Shown: one piece after another, positions 28 to 19,255 of the stretch
Position numbering within the stretch: the first letter of the stretch is position 1
Layout: every line of letters starts with the position of its first letter
Assembly (NCBI GenBank): GCA_964558955.1
Contig: CAZLGF010000001.1
Coordinates: 10,372 to 52,964 of the forward strand
Origin: an uncultured Coriobacteriaceae bacterium
GTDB taxonomy: Bacteria; Actinomycetota; Coriobacteriia; Coriobacteriales; Coriobacteriaceae
Direction of reading: 5' to 3'
DNA: 42,593 bases
The notes under the pieces: model-generated
The model's database searches: none
The model's input: only the letters and a program-made list of their open reading frames with translations
Told to the model about the DNA's origin: nothing
Position numbers and translations under genes: made by a program

Positions 28-55
28 TTCAAAACGTGGAGACAAGGGCTAAAAT
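28..55 (+). promoter_or_regulatory. Putative sigma70-type promoter of the rnf operon
   Basis: TTCAAA (28-33), 16-nt spacer, TAAAAT (50-55) in an AT-rich patch about 80 nt upstream of rnfC. Confidence 0.5.
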
Positions 56-133: not shown

Positions 134-1471
134 ATGTTCTCTCTGCACAAGACGCTGGGCGGTGTGCATCCGCCCCAGTGCAAGGACACGCGTGACTGCG
201 CGGTCACGACCCTCGCTCCGCCCGATCGCGTGCGCATTCCGCTCAACATGCACATCGGCGCCCCCGACACGCCCTGCGTGTCCGTGGGCGATCACGTGTA
301 TATCGGCACGCTCATCGGTGACGGGGAAGGGCTGTGCGCGCCCATTCACGCGAGCATCTCGGGAACGGTGACCTCGGTCGCCACCGAGACGCTGCCCACC
401 GGCCAGACCGCTCCCGTGGTGGAGATCACCTCGGACGGCGCGATGGAGGTCGATCCGTCGCTCACGGTTCCCACGTATGAGACGCGCGACGAGTTCATCG
501 CGTGCGTGCGCGCGTCGGGCGTGGTGGGCTTGGGCGGCGCCTCGTTCCCGTCATGGTTCAAGATGAAGGCTCCCGCGGGCAAGAGCTTCGAGTTCGTCGT
601 CGTCAACGGCATGGAGTGCGAGCCCTTCATCACCAGCGACTTCCGTCAGATGATCGAGCACGCCGAGCGCGTGATCGACGGCGTGGTGCGCATCGCGCGG
701 GCGCTCGAGATCCCCGCGGCCGTGATCGGCGTGGAGGACAACAAGCCCGAGGCCATCGAGATCCTGCAGCAGACCATCACCGAGAAGGGCGTGGGCGACC
801 TCGTCGAGGTCATGGGCGTTCCCACCAAGTACCCGGCCGGCGGCGAGAAGGTTCTCATCGAGGCGACCACGGGCCGGGCGGTCCCGGCGGGCGGGCTGCC
901 CGTCGACGCGGGCTGCCTCGTGCTCAACGTGACCACGGTCTCCAAGATCGAGGAGTACTTCCGCTACGGCGTGCCGCTCGCCCGCAAGACCGTCACCATC
1001 GCCGGTGACTGCGTGAAGAATCCCGGCAACTACCGCGTGCCGGTGGGCATGAGCGTGCACGACGTCATCGAGGCCACCGGCGGGCTCATCAAGGAGCCGC
1101 GCAAGATCATCATGGGCGGCCCCATGATGGGTCGGACCATCACCGACATCGACTGCCCCATCCTGAAGGCCAACAACGCCATCCTCTGCCTTGATGACGC
1201 GGCGGTTCTTCCCGATGAGACGCCGTGCATCCGCTGCGGCCGCTGCGTGCGCGCGTGCCCGCTCGGGCTCATGCCGTTCGCGCTCGACGCCGCCTCGCGC
1301 AGCCACGACGTGGTCAAGCTTGACGAGTACGCGGTCATGAACTGCATGGAGTGCGGATCCTGCGCCTTCACGTGCCCGGCGCACCGTCGTATCACCGCCT
1401 CGATCCGCGAGGGCAAGGGCGTCTATCGCTCCGAGGTCGCGCGGCTCACCCAGCCTGCGAAGGAGGCGTAA
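134..1471 (+). CDS. rnfC: Rnf/Rsx electron transport complex subunit C (NAD(H)/FMN-binding, 2x[4Fe-4S])
   Basis: Motifs GGVHP, HIGAP, PIHASISG, GLGGASFP, NGMECEP, KYPAGGEK, MGGPMMG and two ferredoxin motifs CIRCGRCVRACP / CMECGSCAFTCP. SD AAGGGGAG upstream; TTG at 131 is an alternative start. Confidence 0.95.
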   Translation: MFSLHKTLGGVHPPQCKDTRDCAVTTLAPPDRVRIPLNMHIGAPDTPCVSVGDHVYIGTLIGDGEGLCAPIHASISGTVTSVATETLPTGQTAPVVEITSDGAMEVDPSLTVPTYETRDEFIACVRASGVVGLGGASFPSWFKMKAPAGKSFEFVVVNGMECEPFITSDFRQMIEHAERVIDGVVRIARALEIPAAVIGVEDNKPEAIEILQQTITEKGVGDLVEVMGVPTKYPAGGEKVLIEATTGRAVPAGGLPVDAGCLVLNVTTVSKIEEYFRYGVPLARKTVTIAGDCVKNPGNYRVPVGMSVHDVIEATGGLIKEPRKIIMGGPMMGRTITDIDCPILKANNAILCLDDAAVLPDETPCIRCGRCVRACPLGLMPFALDAASRSHDVVKLDEYAVMNCMECGSCAFTCPAHRRITASIREGKGVYRSEVARLTQPAKEA

Positions 1472-1476
1472 GCGTC

Positions 1477-2409
1477 ATGGATCTGATTAACGAGGCATCG
1501 CCTCACTTCCACGGGACGTCGAGGACGCAGCGGATCATGGGCGCCGTCTGCCTGGCGCTCGCTCCCACGCTCATCGCCTCCCTGTTCCTCTACGGGCTCC
1601 GCGCCCCGCTGCTCGTGCTCGTCTGCGTCGCCACGGCGCTCGTCTGCGAGCACCTGTGCTGCATCATCATGCGGCGCGAGTCGACCGCGGGCGACCTCTC
1701 GTGCGTGGTCACGGGCATGCTTCTGGCCTTCACCCTGCCGTCGACCTGCTCGTTCGCCGTGGCTATCGCGGGCACCGTCTTCGCCGTGGTGATCGCCAAG
1801 ATGCTCTTTGGCGGCATCGGCTGCAACTTCGCCAACCCGGCGGTCGCGGGCCGCATCTTCATCATGGTGGCGTTCCCCTCCGCGCTCTCGTCCTACCCTG
1901 ACGTGGCCGGCAAGGCGCTCGACGCCATCACCGGCGCCACCCCGCTCGCCATGCTGTCATCGGGGGCCGACTCCTACAGCTATCTCGACATGCTGCTCGG
2001 CAACCATGCGGGCGCCCTGGGTGAGACCTGCATCATCACGCTGCTCGTGGGCTACCTCTTCCTGCTCGCCATCAAGGTGGTCGACGGCTGGGCGACGCTT
2101 CCCTTCATCGCGACGGTCGCCGTGATCACCGGCCTCGCCGGTGAGGACGTGGTCTATCAGCTGCTCTCGGGCGGCCTTGCGCTCGGCGCCTTCTTCATGG
2201 CGACGGACTACACCACCACGCCCATGACGCCCAAGGGCAAGATCATCTTCGGCGTGGGCTGCGGCCTCATCACCGCGCTCGTGCGCATCTTCGCCTCGGC
2301 GCCCGAGGGCGTCGCCTACTCCATCCTGTTCATGAACATGCTCGTTCCGCTGATTGATCGCTTCACGCGCTCGCAGCCGGTGGGAGGTGTCAAGCATGCC
2401 ATCGTCTAA
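1477..2409 (+). CDS. rnfD: Rnf/Rsx subunit D (membrane, covalent FMN)
   Basis: SPH start, FGGIGCNFANPA, DAITGATPL flavinylation motif, GALGET, FFMATDY, PEG. SD AAGGAGG at the end of rnfC supports ATG 1477 rather than the ORF-track start at 1351. Confidence 0.95.
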   Translation: MDLINEASPHFHGTSRTQRIMGAVCLALAPTLIASLFLYGLRAPLLVLVCVATALVCEHLCCIIMRRESTAGDLSCVVTGMLLAFTLPSTCSFAVAIAGTVFAVVIAKMLFGGIGCNFANPAVAGRIFIMVAFPSALSSYPDVAGKALDAITGATPLAMLSSGADSYSYLDMLLGNHAGALGETCIITLLVGYLFLLAIKVVDGWATLPFIATVAVITGLAGEDVVYQLLSGGLALGAFFMATDYTTTPMTPKGKIIFGVGCGLITALVRIFASAPEGVAYSILFMNMLVPLIDRFTRSQPVGGVKHAIV

Positions 2410-3055
2410 CGAGTCTTCCCGCGCGCTCACCCCTGAGGTGCCCTCCGCGGCCGAGACCGAGGCCCCGCGCCGCTCCTGGATCGCGCGGCATCGCGACAGC
2501 GCGCCCTACGCCTTCGTGGTCACGCTGCTCGCGGTCGTGATCTGCGGCACCGTCATGTCGACCGCCTACTTCGTGGGCCAGTGGGGCACGAGCGCCTTCG
2601 CCGACGCCGACGCGGTGCTTGATGAGGCGCAGGGCGGCTCCCAGCGCGCGCTGCTCTTCCCCGACGCGTCTTCGTTCGAGCAGGTTTCCGCTCCGTCCAT
2701 CGACGGCCTCAACTCGGTGTACGTGACCGAGAGCGGCGACTACGTCTTCGATGTGACCTCAACCGGCTACGGCGGCGACGTCGAGATGCTCGTGGGCATC
2801 GCGTCGGATGGCACGGTGGCCGGCATTCAGGTCATCGCCGAGAGCGAGACCGACGGCATCGGCTCCAACGCCCTCACCGAGGACTATTTCGACACGTTCA
2901 CCGGCTTGACCGCGACGGGCACCCTGACCGTTGAGGAGGCGACGGGCGACGAGACCGAGGTCGACGGCGTCTCCGGTGCCACCTACACCTCGAAGGCCGT
3001 CGTCGCGAATCTGAACATCGCCTTCGAGGCCTACGCTGAGCTGGGAGGTAACTAG
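2396..3055 (+). CDS. rnfG: Rnf/Rsx subunit G (membrane-anchored extracytosolic FMN-binding protein)
   Basis: One N-terminal TM helix, GYGG..MLVGI..DG, ESETDGIG and VDGVSGATYTSKAV flavinylation motif. SD GGGAGG; overlaps the rnfD stop. Confidence 0.9.
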   Translation: MPSSNESSRALTPEVPSAAETEAPRRSWIARHRDSAPYAFVVTLLAVVICGTVMSTAYFVGQWGTSAFADADAVLDEAQGGSQRALLFPDASSFEQVSAPSIDGLNSVYVTESGDYVFDVTSTGYGGDVEMLVGIASDGTVAGIQVIAESETDGIGSNALTEDYFDTFTGLTATGTLTVEEATGDETEVDGVSGATYTSKAVVANLNIAFEAYAELGGN

Positions 3056-3056
3056 G

Positions 3057-3710
3057 ATGGCCCTGCATGAATCAGTCGTGCGCGCGCAGAACGAGCATGC
3101 CTCCGCGCTCGTGCGCACGCCCGCCTTTCTCCTGGTCGCCGGGTCGCTCACGGGCCTCGCTGCGGCGACCTCGCTTGAGAATGGCGTCGCGATCGGCGCG
3201 GTGAGCGCGATCGCCATCGTGGTGATGGCGCTCGTCGCCCGTCCGCTTCGCGCGCTGACCGGCACGCATGCGCGCGTTCCGGTGCTCTTGCTCGTGAGCG
3301 CGACGGTGGTCGTGCTTCTCTCGTTTGCCGTGCGCGTCATCAACCCCATCGTCTATCAGGATCTCGGGTTCTACCTTCCGCTCGCCGCGGTCAACGGGCT
3401 CGTCGCGTGCTTCATCTACGATGACGGCTTCACGGCGTCGCCTGCGTCCTGCACGCCGCTCACCGCGGTCTTCGGTGGTGCCTGCACCTTCGTCACGCTC
3501 ACGATCATTGGGCTCATCAACGGCATGTTCACGACGGGCGAGATCTTCGGCCTGGTGAACGATGAGCTCGCCTCGTCGCCGATCGCGATCTTCGCCACGC
3601 CGGCGGGATCGCTGCTGCTGCTTGCGCTCGCGGCGGCGTTCGTGAACTCGGTCGTCGCGGCCTCGCTTGCGAGCCGCGCCGCGGACTCCAAGGAGGGTGA
3701 GGACCGATGA
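3057..3710 (+). CDS. rnfE: Divergent Rnf subunit E lacking both canonical Fe-S cysteines
   Basis: Operon position and hydrophobic pattern. Aligns by eye with RnfE (P.F.L..G...LA..TS..NG; R.P; LG.YLPL..VN; G.IFG; P.G..L), but G-x-C-P reads GSLT and VNC reads VNG. Confidence 0.85.
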   Translation: MALHESVVRAQNEHASALVRTPAFLLVAGSLTGLAAATSLENGVAIGAVSAIAIVVMALVARPLRALTGTHARVPVLLLVSATVVVLLSFAVRVINPIVYQDLGFYLPLAAVNGLVACFIYDDGFTASPASCTPLTAVFGGACTFVTLTIIGLINGMFTTGEIFGLVNDELASSPIAIFATPAGSLLLLALAAAFVNSVVAASLASRAADSKEGEDR

Positions 3711-4303
3711 GCGTTCTGAACGCGCTGTTCACGGCTGCCTTCGACAACAACCTCGTGTTCGCCCAGATCGTGGGCATGGTCTCGGTGCTGCTCATCGCTG
3801 AGCGTCCGCAGGACGCCATCCGCTTCGGCGGGGTGCTCGGTGCGGCGTGCTTCATCGCGGGGCTCGTGGGCTGGCCGATCTACACGTACTACCTGTCCTA
3901 CTGGGGCATCACCTACATGGCGCCCGCGGTGCACCTCGTGGTGAGCGCGGCGGTGATCTTCATGGTCGGCGCCATCAAGATCGCGATGAAGCCGGATGTT
4001 GACCGCGCCCGCGTCGTGCGCGCGTGCGTCCTGCTGGCGATCAACGCGGCGGTGCTCGCGGTGCCGCTCTCGCTCGCGGATTCGACCGACGTCACCACGT
4101 TCGGCGAGGCGGGGGCCACGGCCCTCGGGTCCGGCCTCGGGCTCTTCATCGCCGTGGTGCTCTTCGCGTCCATCCGCGATCGCATCGACGAGCGCCTTGT
4201 CCCACCGGTTCTGCGGGGCCTGCCGATCTCGCTGATGACTGCGGCGCTCATGGCGCTCGCTTTCACGGGCGTTTCCGGCATCGCCGGCGGACTGTTCGCG
4301 TAA
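3707..4303 (+). CDS. rnfA: Divergent Rnf subunit A lacking both canonical Fe-S cysteines
   Basis: F.NN.V at the N-terminus and the diagnostic C-terminus VLFASIRDRI....VP..LRGLPISLMTAALMALAFTG. G-x-C-P reads GMVS and TNCAVL reads INAAVL. Confidence 0.88.
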   Translation: MSVLNALFTAAFDNNLVFAQIVGMVSVLLIAERPQDAIRFGGVLGAACFIAGLVGWPIYTYYLSYWGITYMAPAVHLVVSAAVIFMVGAIKIAMKPDVDRARVVRACVLLAINAAVLAVPLSLADSTDVTTFGEAGATALGSGLGLFIAVVLFASIRDRIDERLVPPVLRGLPISLMTAALMALAFTGVSGIAGGLFA

Positions 4304-4314
4304 GGAGGCAGACC

Positions 4315-4485
4315 ATGGGAATGTATGTGGTGGCGCCCCCGGTGATCTTCACGGTGCTCATGTTCGTCCCCACCGTGGTGCTCGCGGTCGCGACGATGCT
4401 CGTGCGCCGGGCGGACCGGCTCGAGGCGCAGGCGGCCGAGCAGGCGGATGACGCCGCCGAGACGGCGGATCCCGACGCTGCGTAG
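4315..4485 (+). CDS. 56-aa single-TM protein in the rnfB position (probable RnfB membrane-anchor remnant)
   Basis: Strong SD AAGGAGG (4302-4308) overlapping the rnfA stop. Sequence MGMYVVAPPVIFTVLMFVPTVVLAVATMLVRRADRLEAQAAEQADDAAETADPDAA: hydrophobic N-half, acidic tail, no Cys. Confidence 0.7.
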   Translation: MGMYVVAPPVIFTVLMFVPTVVLAVATMLVRRADRLEAQAAEQADDAAETADPDAA

Positions 4486-11358: not shown

Positions 11359-12405
11359 ATGGCTGCTCACGAGATGGTCGACGAGTACGGGCGCGGTATC
11401 ACCTATCTGCGCATCGCCGTGACCGATAAGTGCAATTATCGGTGCGTGTACTGCATGCCCGCGGAGGGCGTGCCGCCGCGGGCGCATGATGAGCTGCTGT
11501 CCGCCGAGGAGATCGCGCGCTTCGTGCGCGCGGTGGCGCGCGAGGGCGTGCGCCGCGTGCGCCTGACGGGCGGGGAGCCGCTCGTCTCCCATCGCATCGT
11601 TCCGCTCGTCCGCGCCATCCGGGCGATCCCCGAGATCGAGGACATCGCGCTCACCACGAACGGGGCGCTGCTGCCCGCGCTCGCGCCCGAGCTCAAGGCG
11701 GCGGGGCTCGACCGGGTGAACATCTCGCTCGACACGCTCGACCCCGCGCAGTTCACCCAGATCACGCGCATCGGCCGCCTCGAGCAGACGCTCCAGGGCA
11801 TCGATGCGGCGCTTGCGCACGGATTTGATCCGGTGAAGGTCAACTGCGTGGTGGTGCGCCGGCTGAACCAGGACGTGCTCGGCCTGGCGCGGCTCTCGAT
11901 CGACAGGCCGGTGCACGTGCGGTTCATCGAGTACATGCCCATCGGCGACGAGCGCACGAGCTCGGGATGCGCCGTCGACCCGCATGACGCGCACGTCGAC
12001 GCGGCGGTGTGGGACGCGAGCGACACGGTGCCCTCGTTTGAGCTGGCGGAGCGGATCTCGCGCGCCGGTGAGGCCGCGGGCCTGGGCGCGCTCGAGGAAG
12101 CTGAGGGGCCAAACGGAGCCGGTCCCGCGCGCTACCTGCGCTTTTCGGGGGCGCAGGGAACGGTGGGGTTCATCTCGGCGATGTCGGACCACTTCTGCGC
12201 GACGTGCAACCGGATGCGGCTCACCGCCGACGGCGCCATCCGGCCGTGTTTGTTCTCGGATGATGAGTACGTGGTGCGCGACGCCCTGCGCGCCGGCGAT
12301 GACGAGCGCGTTCGTGCCGTCTGGCGCACGGCGGTCAGCCACAAGCCCGAGGAGCACGAGGTCATCAGCGGCACCGCGCGGTTCATGTCCCAGATCGGCG
12401 GATAG
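11359..12405 (+). CDS. moaA: GTP 3',8-cyclase (Moco biosynthesis, radical SAM)
   Basis: YLRIAVTDKCNYRCVYC, RLTGGEP, NISLDT, C-terminal CATCNRMRLTADG...C cluster and terminal IGG. SD GGGGAGG supports ATG 11359. Confidence 0.96.
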   Translation: MAAHEMVDEYGRGITYLRIAVTDKCNYRCVYCMPAEGVPPRAHDELLSAEEIARFVRAVAREGVRRVRLTGGEPLVSHRIVPLVRAIRAIPEIEDIALTTNGALLPALAPELKAAGLDRVNISLDTLDPAQFTQITRIGRLEQTLQGIDAALAHGFDPVKVNCVVVRRLNQDVLGLARLSIDRPVHVRFIEYMPIGDERTSSGCAVDPHDAHVDAAVWDASDTVPSFELAERISRAGEAAGLGALEEAEGPNGAGPARYLRFSGAQGTVGFISAMSDHFCATCNRMRLTADGAIRPCLFSDDEYVVRDALRAGDDERVRAVWRTAVSHKPEEHEVISGTARFMSQIGG

Positions 12406-12557: not shown

Positions 12558-13721
12558 ATGACGAGCAGCGAGACCGCGCGCGACGCGTACCGCGACGAGC
12601 TCACCCACGTCGACGAGCGCGGTGACGTGCGCATGGTCGACGTGTCCGAGAAGGCTTCGACCAAGCGCGTCGCCGTGGCCGAGGCGAGCATCCTCATGCA
12701 TCCCGAGACGCAGGCCATGGTGCTTGAGGACCGCGCCAAGAAGGGCGACGTCCTTGCCTGCGCGCGCGTCGCGGGCATCATGGCCGCCAAGCGCACGAGC
12801 GACCTCATTCCCATGTGCCACCCGCTCATGCTCACCAAGAGCGCGGTCGACATCGCGCCGATCGCCGCGGACGCCACCTCCGCACCCGCCGACTGGGCTC
12901 CCGCCCGCGCCGATGGGCGCGTGGGCTTTCGCGTGCGGGCGACCTGCGGCGTCACGGGCGTCACGGGCATCGAGATGGAGGCGCTGACCGCGGCGAGCAC
13001 GGCGTGCCTCACCATCTACGACATGTGCAAGGCGGTCGATCGCGGCATGGAGATCGTCGACGTGCGGCTGCTGCGCAAGGAGGGCGGCCGCTCGGGCACC
13101 TGGGATCGCGCGGCGGCGGAGGACGGCGCTGAGGACGAGGCCGGCACCCGGGTAGGGGATGCGCCGCGTGCCGGCGTGCCTTCTGTGCCGGGAGAGTCTC
13201 CCGCTCCCGCGATCGCCTTCGTCGGCTACCAGAACGCGGGCAAGACGACGCTCGTCGAGCGCGTCATCACCGAGCTCACGCGCGCGGGCGTGCGCGTCGG
13301 CACGGTGAAGCACCATGGTCACGCCGGTTTCGACATCGACGTGCCCGGCAAGGACTCGTGGCGCCACGCGCAGGCGGGCAGCCGGCACGTGGGGCTCATC
13401 TGCGCCGATCGTTACGCCGAGTACGCCGACACCGCCGCGGAGCTGCCGCTCGACGAGCTGCTCGCGCGCTACACGGACGTCGACGTGGTGCTGGTCGAGG
13501 GGTACAAGGCGGCGGGGCTGCCCAACGTGGTGGTCGCGCGCTCGGGGGTCGACCGCATGCGCGGCGCGAGCTCGCTCGATCTGATCGACGAGCGAACCGT
13601 GGCCCTTGCCTGCAATGACGCGCTTGCCGGGCGCGTGCGCACGGGGACGCCCGTCATCAGCATCAACGACGCCGCCGCGGTGGCCGCGGCCGTCAGGGAC
13701 TGGCTCGCCCGCGCGCGATAG
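12558..13721 (+). CDS. moaC: MoaC-MobB fusion (cPMP synthase plus molybdopterin-guanine dinucleotide biosynthesis protein B)
   Basis: N-half [43 protein letters not shown]. After a linker, C-half [40 protein letters not shown] (MobB). SD GGAGG before ATG 12558. Confidence 0.9.
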
Positions 13722-16427: not shown

Positions 16428-16483
16428 TTCCGTCTCGCACGGAACAGCTCGTCATTGAGTGGCTTCAACCCCCTCTTTAAGAT
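16428..16483 (+). promoter_or_regulatory. Promoter with upstream inverted repeat (putative LicR/CelR-type activator site)
   Basis: TTCCGT-N5-ACGGAA palindrome (16428-16444), then TTGAGT (16455-16460), 17-nt spacer and TAAGAT (16478-16483). Confidence 0.6.
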
Positions 16484-16505
16484 ACGTTATGGAAAGGAGT
16501 GGGGC

Positions 16506-18488
16506 GTGATCGACTCAGATCTCATCGTATACGTGCAGGAACATGCCGGTGTCGCGCCCGCGGATCTTGCGGCGCGCGCCGGCGTGTCAACGCGCACGGT
16601 ACGAAAACGCATCGCGGCATGCAACGATGCGCTCGCCGGCGCCGCGGCCATCACGTATGAGCGAAACGGCGCGCAGGGCAGCGGCTACTATGTGGTGGTT
16701 TCCGATGCCGCGCGGTTTGAGGAGTTACTTGCGCGCGCCCGGCAAACGCGAACTTCCTCGCTGCCCGAGAACAGCGAGGAGCGCGTGAGCTTTTTGCTCA
16801 ACTATCTGCTGCTGCAGACCGACTGGATCACACGTGAGCAACTCGCGGAGATTCTCTACGTCTCGCCCAACAGCATTACCGCGGCGCTCAGGGATGTCGA
16901 GCGAATCTTGGGCGAGTTCAACCTGACGCTTCAGCGTCGTCCCCGGTACGGTGTCCGTGTGGCAGGTTCTGAGATGGCGCGGCGGCTCTGCCTTGCTAAC
17001 GCGGCGGTGAGCGAGCTCGATGCCGATAGCCTGCAGGCTGGCACGGGTCTCTCGGTGCTCAACAGTCTGCTTCCCGAGTCATCTGCTCGTTCAGACACGA
17101 TGCAGATTCGCCTTATGCTGGATCGCCTCGACACCTTGGTGTCAGACGTGGTCGGGAAGAGCAACTTCCACGTCAACTCGTTCTCCTACCAAAATCTTCT
17201 GGTGCACATCGGCATCGCGCTCGTTCGCATCCAGAAGGGCTGTTACGTGCCTATGGCCACCGAGCAGCTGGAGCCCATCAGGCAGTCCGATGAATACGCG
17301 GTGGCTCGAAAGATCGCTCAGGGCATTGAGCACGAGTTCGACATTCATTTGCCCGAAGAAGAGGTTGCCTATATCTCGATCCATCTTGCGGGAAAGCAGA
17401 TCATCCAGCTTGAGGGGGCGCCGACGCTGGATGGCTCGTCTCCCATTTCGGATGAGGTGTGGAGCGTCGTTACCGCCATCCTCGAGCGCGTCTGGAGCAC
17501 ATACCGCTTCGATTTGCGCGGCGATCTCGAGTTGCGCATGAACCTTGCCCAACACATCGTGCCGCTTTCGGTGCGCCTCAACTATAGTCTGGAAGTGCGA
17601 AATCCCATGGCGGATGAGATCAAGGCGCGCTATCCGCTTGCCTATGCCATGGCCCTCGAAGCCGCCGGCGTCTTGGCGCATACCTATGGCTCGGAGCTTT
17701 CCGATAACGAGGTGAGCTATCTCGCCCTGTCGTTCGCGCTTTCGCTGGAGCGCCAGAAGACTGGGCACCCCAAGAAGAATATTTTGGTGGTATGCGCCTC
17801 GGGACGGGGGAGTGCCAGTCTCCTGGGATTCCGCTATCGTCAAGAATTTGGCGACTATATCGAAACGATCACCTCGTGCGATGTGCATCATATCGATCAA
17901 GTCGACCTGTCCCGCATCGACTACGTATTCACCACCGTGCCCCTCAACCAGAGCCTGCCGGTTCCGGTGCGCGAAGTCGGCTACTTCTTGAACGATGACG
18001 ACATCCTAGCCATTCGCAGCGTACTCCACAACGACACGTCGCGACACGCGGAAGGCGTCGAGCGCTATTTCGATTCACGACTCTTCTTCACGCATCTGCG
18101 GTTTGCCGCGCGTGAGGACGTGCTCTCCTTCCTGTGCGATGCCGTCTGCGCAACCGGCTTGGTGGACGACACCTTTACCGAGCAGGTGCAGCTGCGCGAG
18201 CGTGCAGCGCCTACCGCCTTTGGCGGGTTGGTCGCGCTGCCGCATCCGTATGCTCCCGTGTCTGACGTCTCGTTCGTAGCGGTCGGGCTCCTCGACGACC
18301 CCGTCGAATGGAACGGACACGAGGTGCAGGCCGTCTTCCTGCTGTGCATAGCCCGCGAACCCGACGATGACCTCACAAGTTTCTACGACAAGTTCTCGAA
18401 TCTGATGTTCAACGAGCAGGCCATCAGGTGCCTTCTTGAAGATCAGCGCTTTGAGGTGCTCGAGCGCGTCTTTTTAGGTGCCGACTGA
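16506..18488 (+). CDS. LicR/CelR/MtlR-type PRD-containing transcriptional activator (HTH-PRD-PRD-EIIB-EIIA)
   Basis: N-terminal HTH (LAARAGVSTRTVRK), second Mga-like HTH, PRD histidines (LLVHIGIA, ISIHLAG, LAQHIVP), EIIB-like VVCASGRGSA, EIIA-like VALPHP. SD GAAAGGAG before GTG 16506. Confidence 0.92.
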   Translation: MIDSDLIVYVQEHAGVAPADLAARAGVSTRTVRKRIAACNDALAGAAAITYERNGAQGSGYYVVVSDAARFEELLARARQTRTSSLPENSEERVSFLLNYLLLQTDWITREQLAEILYVSPNSITAALRDVERILGEFNLTLQRRPRYGVRVAGSEMARRLCLANAAVSELDADSLQAGTGLSVLNSLLPESSARSDTMQIRLMLDRLDTLVSDVVGKSNFHVNSFSYQNLLVHIGIALVRIQKGCYVPMATEQLEPIRQSDEYAVARKIAQGIEHEFDIHLPEEEVAYISIHLAGKQIIQLEGAPTLDGSSPISDEVWSVVTAILERVWSTYRFDLRGDLELRMNLAQHIVPLSVRLNYSLEVRNPMADEIKARYPLAYAMALEAAGVLAHTYGSELSDNEVSYLALSFALSLERQKTGHPKKNILVVCASGRGSASLLGFRYRQEFGDYIETITSCDVHHIDQVDLSRIDYVFTTVPLNQSLPVPVREVGYFLNDDDILAIRSVLHNDTSRHAEGVERYFDSRLFFTHLRFAAREDVLSFLCDAVCATGLVDDTFTEQVQLRERAAPTAFGGLVALPHPYAPVSDVSFVAVGLLDDPVEWNGHEVQAVFLLCIAREPDDDLTSFYDKFSNLMFNEQAIRCLLEDQRFEVLERVFLGAD

Positions 18489-18588
18489 GTGTTCTTTGGT
18501 AATCGGTGCGGCCGTTTGATACCGGTGCAAGCGGCTCGCACGTTACAGATACGGACGCAATCGGTTTATTGCGGAAGGAGACAGAATC

Positions 18589-18885
18589 ATGCGTCATATC
18601 GTATTGATGTGCGCGGCAGGGGCGTCGACCAGCATGCTGGTCAAGCGCATGCGTGATGCTGCCGCACGAGACGGCTATGAGTGCAGCGTCGAGGCCCACC
18701 CGGTGAGCGAGGCGGAGCAGTACGCCAATGCCGATGTCATCTTGCTGGGTCCGCAGGTTCGCTTTCAGCTCGCTAAGGTAAAGGGCCTCGTCAACTGCCC
18801 GGTCGGGTCGATCGACATGGCAGACTATGGCGCCATGAACGGCGAGGCGGTTTTGCGACAGGCCCGAGAGCTCATGGGTGATTAA
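18589..18885 (+). CDS. PTS lactose/cellobiose family EIIB
   Basis: IVLMCAAGASTSMLV phosphorylation motif, ILLGPQV, IDMADYG. SD GAAGGAG. Confidence 0.93.
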   Translation: MRHIVLMCAAGASTSMLVKRMRDAAARDGYECSVEAHPVSEAEQYANADVILLGPQVRFQLAKVKGLVNCPVGSIDMADYGAMNGEAVLRQARELMGD

Positions 18886-18886
18886 G

Positions 18887-19255
18887 ATGGCCGACGCGCA
18901 CGAGCAGGCTCTTGAGGAGCTCGAGCATGCCTGCTTCCAGATCGTTGCGCTGGTGGGCAATGCCCGAAGTTGCTTCTTGGAGGCCATCTCAAAGGCCGAG
19001 CAGGGCGATTTCGAGGGCGCTCAGGCAAGCATCGCCGAGGGCGATAAATCGTTTAACGAGGGCCACAGCGCGCATCTTGCGCTCTTGCAGCGCGAGGCGA
19101 ACGGTGAGCAGCTGCCGTTCCGCATCATCTTGCTCCATGCTGAGGACCAGCTTATGAGTGCTGAGGGCTTCCGAATCTTGGCCGACACCTTCATCGCGCT
19201 CTACCGAAAGATCCAGCACGCGGACACACCGCATTCCGTCTCGAAGGGGGAATGA
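18887..19255 (+). CDS. PTS lactose/cellobiose family EIIA
   Basis: FQIVALVGNARS, GHSAH..LLQREANG, ILLHAEDQLM motif. Confidence 0.92.
   Translation: MADAHEQALEELEHACFQIVALVGNARSCFLEAISKAEQGDFEGAQASIAEGDKSFNEGHSAHLALLQREANGEQLPFRIILLHAEDQLMSAEGFRILADTFIALYRKIQHADTPHSVSKGE

What the first reader, a model, noticed from the sequence alone, without database searches (positions are those of the whole stretch)
134..4485. Half-Rnf complex: intact NAD(H)-to-extracytosolic-FMN arm, disabled ferredoxin arm
Seen: RnfC keeps both 4Fe-4S motifs and its FMN/NAD motifs, and RnfD (GATPL) and RnfG (SGATYTS) keep their flavinylated Thr. RnfA and RnfE lack the canonical cluster cysteines and RnfB is a Cys-free stub, yet all six ORFs are intact, tightly coupled and mostly carry clear SD sites. 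Established: in Rnf, electrons run ferredoxin > RnfB > A/E membrane Fe-S > RnfG-FMN > RnfD-FMN/riboflavin > RnfC > NAD+. Inference: exactly the B-A/E half of the path is removed in a coordinated way, leaving a single-pass wire between cytosolic NAD(H) and the outward-facing RnfG flavin, with A/E/B-stub as scaffold. It could feed extracytosolic reductases or acceptors, or take electrons from an outside donor, instead of pumping ions. Automated pipelines would call it an ordinary Rnf. I cannot confirm that this architecture is unreported.
Basis: partly seen in the sequence, partly recalled or inferred. Interest (0 to 1): 0.9.

Follow-up and report, generated by a model that had tools for sequence, protein, structure and literature searches.

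The report
Half-Rnf wired to exported molybdoenzyme
Gut Collinsella-type bacteria keep a version of the Rnf respiratory complex that has lost its ferredoxin half, and it is kept or lost together with an exported molybdenum-type enzyme of unknown function and a five-heme cytochrome, which likely form one electron chain between the outside of the cell and NAD inside.

Summary
RnfC, D and G keep every cofactor motif. RnfA and RnfE lack all four [2Fe-2S] cysteines, and RnfB is a 56-aa membrane stub. This is not decay: 24 of 24 Coriobacteriaceae loci share it, dN/dS is 0.05-0.10, and no RnfB was found elsewhere in 5 genomes tested.

A likely partner emerged. In 120 genomes, RnfG, a YdhV-family (Class V WOR) enzyme and a pentaheme cytochrome occur in the same 27 and in none of the other 93, across at least three changes on the tree; controls Ech (115) and MoaA (112) do not follow. 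The enzyme operon swaps the quinone-type NrfD anchor of relatives for the cytochrome, and 19 of 27 carriers lack MenA. A palindrome found before molybdate and Moco genes also precedes rnfC in 15 of 27 carriers.

Best reading: exported enzyme > cytochrome > RnfG > RnfD > RnfC > NAD+. Contact, substrate and direction are untested. One-way Rnf-derived wires are published as a different two-subunit system. This scan noted RnfB-less, cysteine-less Rnf variants on other DNA before (unchecked). I found no paper on this architecture or partner.

The parts
28..55 (+). Promoter-like hexamer pair upstream of rnfC (consensus match only). Sequence further upstream, where relatives carry the palindromic box, is an N gap in this assembly.
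   Evidence: L001 10399-10426
134..1471 (+). rnfC, 445 aa: FMN/NAD(H) domain and two 4Fe-4S motifs, intact
   Evidence: omega 0.054
1477..2409 (+). rnfD, 310 aa: flavinylation Thr155 and conserved Asn120, Glu183, Asp244, Glu277
   Evidence: omega 0.059
2396..3055 (+). rnfG, 219 aa: membrane-anchored FMN-binding domain with Thr196; the only FMN_bind match in this assembly
   Evidence: omega 0.065
3057..3710 (+). rnfE-derived membrane subunit, 217 aa, both cluster cysteines replaced (Leu31, Gly114)
   Evidence: omega 0.082
3707..4303 (+). rnfA-derived membrane subunit, 198 aa, both cluster cysteines replaced (Val25, Ala114); predicted fold retained
   Evidence: omega 0.098
4315..4485 (+). 56-aa single-helix protein with an acidic tail in the position of rnfB
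11359..12405 (+). moaA (context: molybdenum cofactor synthesis; in five relatives it is preceded by the same box as rnfC)
12558..13721 (+). moaC-mobB fusion (context)

Best explanation
This six-gene complex keeps the NAD- and flavin-carrying half of Rnf, has lost the ferredoxin half, and likely takes electrons from an exported molybdenum-type enzyme through a five-heme cytochrome and passes them inward to NAD+. Shown: RnfC, D and G keep their cofactor motifs; the A/E cluster ligands and RnfB's Fe-S domains are gone; the genes are under purifying selection; a worS-worL-cytochrome operon elsewhere in the genome (G000:C26:7961-11648) is kept or lost with it. Inferred path: WorL oxidises a low-potential substrate outside the membrane > WorS Fe-S clusters > pentaheme cytochrome > RnfG-FMN > RnfD-FMN/riboflavin > RnfC > NAD+. 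A, E and the stub would act as a cofactor-free scaffold. Moving electrons inward while releasing protons outside would build membrane potential without a pump (inference). I put the link to the WOR-cytochrome module in any form at about 0.77, and this direct, inward version at 0.35.
For: (1) Co-occurrence in one sample of 120 family genomes at least 90% complete: single FMN_bind hit in 27, cytochrome in the same 27, WorL in the same 27, none in the other 93. In an order-wide sample, RnfC and WorL hit the same 16 of 63 family genomes. (2) Controls do not follow the pattern: Ech large subunit 115 of 120, MoaA 112 of 120, TatC 5 of 5. (3) A LigA tree of 31 rows needs 5 changes, at least 3 forced by starred branches. 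In 11 of 12 family non-carriers the upstream protease gene lies next to ligA, so the operon is absent from its site. (4) In all 19 carrier loci read, the operon is worS(Tat)-worL-pentaheme cytochrome. In 5 of 5 full-length loci from other families it is followed by an Fe-S protein and an NrfD-type anchor, with no cytochrome. (5) No UbiA-family gene in 18 of 27 carriers, and one more has a non-MenA enzyme. MenF is absent in 3 of 3 carriers and MqnA in 4 of 4. (6) In the single-contig carrier G305, no DMSO-family enzyme, FAD_binding_2 protein or second cytochrome of this type was found. (7) The box TTATTCT-N6-AGAATAA: 52 sites in 35 genomes against 2 for the reversed control; 15 lie before rnfC, 3 before worS and 26 before mod/moe/moa genes. 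No site with 1 mismatch or fewer lies before any of 18 canonical rnfC. (8) ApbE in 27 of 27 carriers; cytochrome c maturation genes in 4 of 4 carriers and not in the one non-carrier tested. Direction rests on the family's usual aldehyde-oxidising chemistry (PMC13328260, passages) and on recalled potentials (aldehyde/acid about -0.56 V, NAD -0.32 V).
Against: The two operons are unlinked, and kin are not independent: 83 of the 93 non-carriers look like one tight clade (identities), and I ran only two genome-wide controls. The soluble parts of RnfG and the cytochrome are both strongly acidic (-25 and -26), which does not favour direct docking. MenA occurs in 8 of 27 carriers and 0 of 93 non-carriers, which hints at a quinone step. 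The box precedes both rnfC and worS in no genome at 1 mismatch or fewer, and 16 of 19 wor promoters lack it. No activity is known for any Class V WOR, and one purified large subunit showed none with 46 aldehydes (PMC13328260, section 14). Fermenters usually need NADH sinks, not sources (recalled). Outside this family WorL occurs widely without Rnf (f3: 36 of 64 against 7 of 64 with RnfC), and canonical Rnf occurs without WorL (f6: 6 of 64 against 0 of 64).
Confidence: 0.35

Rival explanations
1. Same chain, run outward: NADH > RnfC > RnfD > RnfG > cytochrome > WOR acting as a terminal reductase. It would serve as an NADH sink, helped by the membrane potential.
For: All co-occurrence and regulatory evidence applies equally. 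This assembly has a second, homologous cytochrome next to a Tat-type FAD_binding_2 protein, the layout of the Cgr1/Cgr2 reductase (PMC5953540, passages). Ech is present to handle ferredoxin. One Class V WOR showed no aldehyde oxidation (PMC13328260).
Against: Only 5 of 28 carriers have a second cytochrome, and I saw the flavoprotein neighbour only in G000. Characterised WORs mostly oxidise aldehydes (PMC13328260, passages).
Confidence: 0.25
2. Quinone-mediated link: the half-Rnf acts as an NADH:menaquinone oxidoreductase, as NQR does through NqrB, and the cytochrome is an NrfH-like quinol dehydrogenase using scavenged quinone or DHNA.
For: MenA occurs only in carriers (8 of 27 against 0 of 93). 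The cytochrome matches the Cgr1 model below cut-off, and Cgr1 is described as NapC/NrfH-like (PMC5953540). Both soluble domains are acidic.
Against: 19 of 27 carriers have no MenA hit, and no head-group synthesis was found in those tested. RnfG and its Thr are kept in 24 of 24 loci although a quinone site in RnfD would not need them. The NrfD anchor was replaced.
Confidence: 0.17
3. The half-Rnf serves some other outside partner (soluble flavins, ferric iron, an unrecognised enzyme), and its match with the WOR operon reflects shared history or a shared niche.
For: There are few independent losses (3 to 5 changes) and the operons are unlinked. Iron uptake has been suggested for Nqr/Rnf-like systems (PMC8238504), and feoAB-like genes lie about 5-8 kb upstream of rnfC (my reading of the sequence).
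Against: It does not explain a molybdenum-gene box before rnfC in 15 of 27 carriers and before 0 of 18 canonical rnfC, nor the change of anchor in the WOR operon.
Confidence: 0.14
4. It is still a ferredoxin:NAD+ oxidoreductase, with a substitute input subunit or other ligands for the membrane cluster.
For: All membrane subunits are kept, and RnfA is predicted to keep its fold (TM-score 0.82 to 9eri_A).
Against: All four ligand columns hold Val, Ala, Leu or Gly in 24 of 24 loci. The only conserved Cys in A (107; 18 of 24) and E (143; 19 of 24) are at other positions. No PF04060 match in 5 of 5 genomes. A and E are 2-4 times more relaxed than their canonical counterparts.
Confidence: 0.05
5. 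A decaying Rnf operon.
For: A, E and G fall below their NCBIfam cut-offs, and the operon has been lost several times.
Against: Omega is 0.054-0.098 for the five large subunits, and dN is below dS in 12 of 12 valid stub pairs. The same replacements are fixed across four genera, and 23 of 24 loci have whole frames (L005 has a break in rnfC).
Confidence: 0.02

Closest known systems
Canonical Rnf (RnfCDGEAB; PDB 9eri, 7zc6, 8ahx)
   Same: Gene order CDGEA(B); RnfC, D and G cofactor motifs; RnfA fold; descent from canonical Rnf of other Coriobacteriia.
   Different: No A/E [2Fe-2S] ligands and no RnfB Fe-S domains, so no ferredoxin input; a molybdenum-gene box upstream.
Nqr/Rnf-like systems (PMC8238504; PMC10979944)
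   Same: Proposed one-way transfer between cytosolic NAD(P)H and an extracytosolic FMN domain.
   Different: Those have two subunits, an RnfD-like domain fused to PF00175, and no conserved RnfD Thr. This has separate RnfC, keeps Thr155, and retains A, E and a stub.
Methanosarcina Rnf with the multiheme cytochrome MmcA (10.1101/2022.07.20.500911; start of abstract seen)
   Same: An Rnf working with a multiheme c-type cytochrome.
   Different: That complex takes electrons from ferredoxin; here the ferredoxin half is the one removed and the NAD half is kept.
Class V WOR, clade 41 (E. coli YdhV/YdhY; PMC13328260)
   Same: WorL passes PRK09849 (971.5 vs 868), and WorS has a Tat-like signal and three CxxCxxCxxxC motifs.
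   Different: The paper's text gives Coriobacteria a transmembrane subunit plus a second pyranopterin subunit. These carriers have one pentaheme cytochrome instead. Rnf is not mentioned in its main text.
Eggerthella Cgr1/Cgr2 (PMC5953540)
   Same: Membrane-anchored cytochrome c3-family protein serving an exported oxidoreductase (PF14537).
   Different: Below the Cgr1 cut-off (85.9 vs 340); paired with a WOR; most carriers lack MenA.

Membership tests
Canonical Rnf | RnfC with FMN/NAD motifs and two 4Fe-4S clusters | tested here: met
   (23 of 23 loci)
Canonical Rnf | Flavinylation Thr in RnfD and RnfG, with ApbE in the genome | tested here: met
   sequence only
Canonical Rnf | Four Cys from RnfA and RnfE binding the membrane [2Fe-2S] | tested here: not met
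   (0 of 4 in 24 of 24 loci)
Canonical Rnf | Polyferredoxin RnfB | tested here: not met
   (43-69 aa stub against 267-328 aa in 15 canonical loci)
Canonical Rnf | Ferredoxin:NAD+ activity with ion translocation | not testable with these tools
   needs biochemistry
Nqr/Rnf-like (Meheust 2021) | PF03116 fused to PF00175 | tested here: not met
   RnfD has PF03116 only
Nqr/Rnf-like (Huang 2024) | Two subunits; RnfD-like Thr not conserved | tested here: not met
   six genes; Thr155 in 23 of 23
Nqr/Rnf-like | One-way transfer between NAD(P)H and an outside FMN domain (works like) | not testable with these tools
   inferred from anatomy
Class V WOR (partner) | YdhV-family large subunit | tested here: met
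   PRK09849 over cut-off; placement in clade 41 not tested by tree
Class V WOR (partner) | Small subunit with Tat signal or transmembrane domain | tested here: met
   RRGF motif and hydrophobic stretch by pattern; TatC present; no signal-peptide predictor run
Class V WOR (partner) | Metal (Mo or W) and substrate | not testable with these tools
   a ModA-type binding protein sits in the moeA operon; tupA not searched

The most novel reading that the evidence does not exclude
An Rnf repurposed as a quinone-free redox loop. An exported YdhV-family molybdoenzyme feeds a pentaheme cytochrome that hands electrons straight to flavinylated RnfG, and the operon has been recruited into the molybdenum regulon. 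This would give the orphan Class V WORs an NAD-linked role in gut bacteria and supply a natural Rnf without the A/E cluster. The many independent cysteine-less RnfA lineages would then be other such wires with other partners.
Probability: 0.55. Interest if true: 0.85.

Novelty: new variant of a known kind. Interest (0 to 1): 0.74.

Why it matters
It makes two open questions testable. First, published models disagree on whether Rnf moves ions through RnfD or through RnfA/E (PMC12174285, passages); this is a natural complex with RnfD intact and the A/E cluster removed. Second, Class V WORs, including E. coli YdhV, have no assigned activity or role (PMC13328260); cultured Collinsella species offer a minimal three-gene version with a candidate NAD-linked partner. 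It also means that 'Rnf present' calls for these gut bacteria, and probably for other lineages with cysteine-less RnfA, wrongly imply ferredoxin-linked energy conservation.

Tried and rejected
AlphaFold2 of the cytochrome was too poor to use (pLDDT 51.9). A profile search matched only its C-terminal hemes to flavocytochrome c3 (best E 4.7e-7), with no NrfH hit. No RNA holder was listed for the operon. I sought context for cysteine-less RnfA in other lineages: one metagenome scan found nothing, another returned 80 of 80 loci with both RnfA cysteines, and cluster look-ups gave one named member, a Porticoccaceae protein; one search returned mostly Clostridia-named RnfA, which I did not examine further. 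A search for the regulator with a candidate from another family found nothing in G000, and a paper search did not identify the box. Other flavinylated FMN_bind partners were rejected: carriers have one match each. DMSO-family enzymes were rejected as the general partner (0 of 4 carriers), as were FAD_binding_2 reductases (none in G305). The probable moaE label (L326) got no Pfam match.
Full report
1. OBSERVATION. The six ORFs are at the stated coordinates. RnfC and RnfD pass their NCBIfam cut-offs; G, E and A are recognisable but fall below. Alignment to solved Rnf chains shows that the two cluster cysteines of RnfA and the two of RnfE are replaced. A review states that these four cysteines hold a membrane [2Fe-2S] cluster that carries electrons from RnfB to RnfG (PMC12174285, passages). 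The 56-aa last ORF has one hydrophobic helix and no cysteine, and it matched no RnfB model; calling it an RnfB remnant is inference from position.

2. SOURCE AND SPREAD. The genome is a 1.5 Mb assembly, 77.8% complete. Named relatives are Collinsella and Coriobacteriaceae. I assembled 28 variant loci and dropped 4 duplicates, leaving 24. All 24 lack all four cysteines, with near-fixed replacements (A: Val 23/Ala 1 and Ala 23/Gly 1; E: Leu 24 and Ala 18/Gly 6). The canonical rows have Cys (14 of 14 at both A columns; 15 plus 2 gaps, and 17 of 17, at the E columns). All 24 have a 43-69 aa stub; for L057 the script first picked a wrong frame, and the right one is seen. Fifteen canonical loci from other families of the order have a 267-328 aa RnfB with 24-28 cysteines. 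RnfC and RnfD trees put the variant in one clade (SH-aLRT 100), next to canonical Rnf of G009, G019, G007 and G010 (support 91 and 88). No second rnf was found in G000; each of 16 family genomes with RnfC has one match, and PF04060 is absent in 5 of 5 carriers.

3. NOT DECAY. Codon-model omega for the variant (23-24 sequences) is C 0.054, D 0.059, G 0.065, E 0.082 and A 0.098. For the canonical set (11-14 sequences) it is 0.042, 0.050, 0.061, 0.046 and 0.026. A and E are relaxed about 2-4-fold but remain constrained. For the stub, dN is below dS in 12 of 12 valid pairs, with one pair dropped for the wrong frame. The RnfA model (pLDDT 77.8) matches 9eri_A at TM-score 0.82; its alignment included canonical rows.

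4. THE PARTNER. RnfG is the only FMN_bind match in G000. In 120 family genomes at least 90% complete, 27 have one match, 3 have five matches from an unrelated system without RnfC, and 90 have none. I call the 27 carriers. For 16 of them I read the whole operon (L047-L062); the rest are assigned by RnfG, of which 7 align at 69-76% identity to the window's. G000 encodes, on contig C26, a Tat-type Fe-S protein, an AFOR-family protein and a one-helix cytochrome with five heme motifs. The cytochrome family (query: its paralogue on C94) and the AFOR protein each hit exactly those 27 genomes and none of the other 93; in G318 the AFOR match is split. The AFOR protein passes the YdhV-family model. A 2026 paper defines such Tat-exported enzymes as Class V WORs, lists Collinsella among their hosts, and says that none has an assigned activity or role (PMC13328260, passages and sections 14-15). 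Controls in the same sample: Ech 115 of 120, missing in 3 carriers; MoaA 112 of 120; ApbE 34 of 120, including all 27. Most non-carriers are close kin. On a LigA tree of 18 carriers, 12 family non-carriers and an outgroup, presence changes 5 times, at least 3 forced; in 11 of the 12 the upstream HtrA-type protease gene lies next to ligA. So the joint pattern rests on a few events, not 93.

5. ANCHOR SWAP AND QUINONES. In 19 of 19 carrier loci the order is worS-worL-cytochrome. In 5 full-length loci from other families (G007, G019, G029, G143, G168) the WOR genes lead to an Fe-S protein and an NrfD-type anchor, with a second Tat molybdoenzyme before them; I confirmed these families by scan for G007 only. 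UbiA-family genes occur in 9 of 27 carriers and 0 of 93 others. Eight are MenA and one is a decaprenyl-phosphate phosphoribosyltransferase. MenF is absent in 3 carriers and 1 non-carrier and present in an f3 genome; MqnA is absent in 5 of 5 genomes tested. Most carriers therefore show no route to a prenylated quinone, but MenA's confinement to carriers keeps a quinone step open. In single-contig G305 no other exported-type redox partner was found among the families searched.

6. A SHARED BOX. Comparing upstream regions revealed TTATTCT-N6-AGAATAA. With up to 2 mismatches it precedes rnfC in 13 of 23 loci and worS in 3 of 19. Genome-wide, with up to 1 mismatch, 35 genomes (27 carriers, 8 non-carriers) hold 52 sites against 2 for the reversed pattern. 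Fifteen lie before rnfC (11 by blastx, 4 by coordinates), 3 before worS, 26 before modA, moeA, moaA or a probable moaE, 2 before an aldehyde-dehydrogenase-domain gene that I read as adhE, and 6 elsewhere. Of 18 canonical rnfC upstream regions, none has such a site and one has a 2-mismatch site; one WorL gene in another family has it. The pattern was derived from rnf and wor promoters, so those counts lean in its favour; the mod/moe/moa sites are the independent part. In G000 the only site precedes moeA, and the region upstream of rnfC is an N gap. The regulator is unidentified.

7. MECHANISM. Shown: anatomy, selection, co-retention, anchor swap and the box. Inferred: that the cytochrome exchanges electrons with RnfG, that A, E and the stub are scaffold, and the direction. 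I favour inward flow to NAD+ (0.35) over outward flow (0.25), a quinone-mediated link (0.17), another partner (0.14), hidden ferredoxin input (0.05) and decay (0.02). Against direct contact, both soluble domains are strongly acidic, though canonical RnfG of the order is too (-10 to -18 per 140 residues). Redox potentials used are recalled.

8. WHAT IS KNOWN. It fails two defining features of Rnf and is not a member in the functional sense. It works like the published Nqr/Rnf-like wire but fails that family's definition (PMC8238504 passages; PMC10979944 abstract and passages). The first of those papers scored Rnf by the presence of RnfB, so this locus would probably fall outside both of its classes (inference); I did not read its supplementary tables, nor the WOR paper's Figure S4, which may list these genes. 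Full-text searches listed no paper on this architecture or on an Rnf-WOR link; the library lacks most subscription papers. PMC5953540 (passages) gives the Cgr1 comparison. PMC13390469 mentioned Collinsella only in references.

9. WIDER PATTERN. Among 151 rows (query plus 150 cluster representatives), 56 lack both RnfA cysteines with residues present at both columns, 49 have both, and the rest have one or are fragments. The search was seeded with a cysteine-less query. On a fast tree of 133 rows the cysteine-less state needs 24 changes, at least 6 forced. I could not obtain their gene context. Three earlier notes of this scan describe RnfB-less, cysteine-less variants in other genomes (unchecked); none appeared for this sequence or for the WOR link.

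10. VERDICT. Real, conserved and functional; a new variant of a known kind with a specific, testable partner. Interest 0.74.

Noticed in passing
G000:C30:1924-2808 (L085): A second ApbE with no evident signal peptide. 26 of 27 carriers have two or more ApbE genes, while the 7 non-carriers with ApbE have one. Its substrate is unknown.
   Followed up: partly
G000:C2:13910-15281 (L086, L118): PF07456 gene next to a lipoprotein-type ApbE, followed by ECF-transporter-like genes: probably the flavin export and flavinylation kit, separated from rnf (role recalled).
   Followed up: partly
G000:C94:2029-4465 (L121): A second multiheme cytochrome beside a Tat-type FAD_binding_2 protein, Cgr1/Cgr2-like; substrate unknown.
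   Followed up: partly
L117:7638-17320 (G187; also G060, G283): Three non-carriers hold an unrelated cluster of multi-FMN_bind proteins, an Fe-S membrane protein and ApbE.
   Followed up: partly
upstream of worS, L135-L158: Most wor promoters carry repeated TACCC-N6-AGGTGA-like motifs; the three that carry the palindromic box appear to lack them.
   Followed up: no
P0126-P0275: Cysteine-less RnfA has arisen many times outside this family; contexts unknown.
   Followed up: partly
L012:10571-11084, L013: Bacilli rnf loci with normal A/E cysteines but only a 129-aa RnfB-like ORF preceded by a 63-aa cysteine-containing membrane peptide.
   Followed up: no
window 12558-13721: MoaC-MobB fusion protein. 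moaA gives split matches in G107, G137, G304 and G305.
   Followed up: no
window 16455-38000: A long run of PTS and glycoside-hydrolase-like genes; the first three (16455-19255) have lower GC3 (0.74-0.77 against about 0.9) (labels are my reading).
   Followed up: no
L067:11367-15357 (G188): A canonical rnf operon directly followed by Ech-like hydrogenase genes (label is my reading).
   Followed up: no
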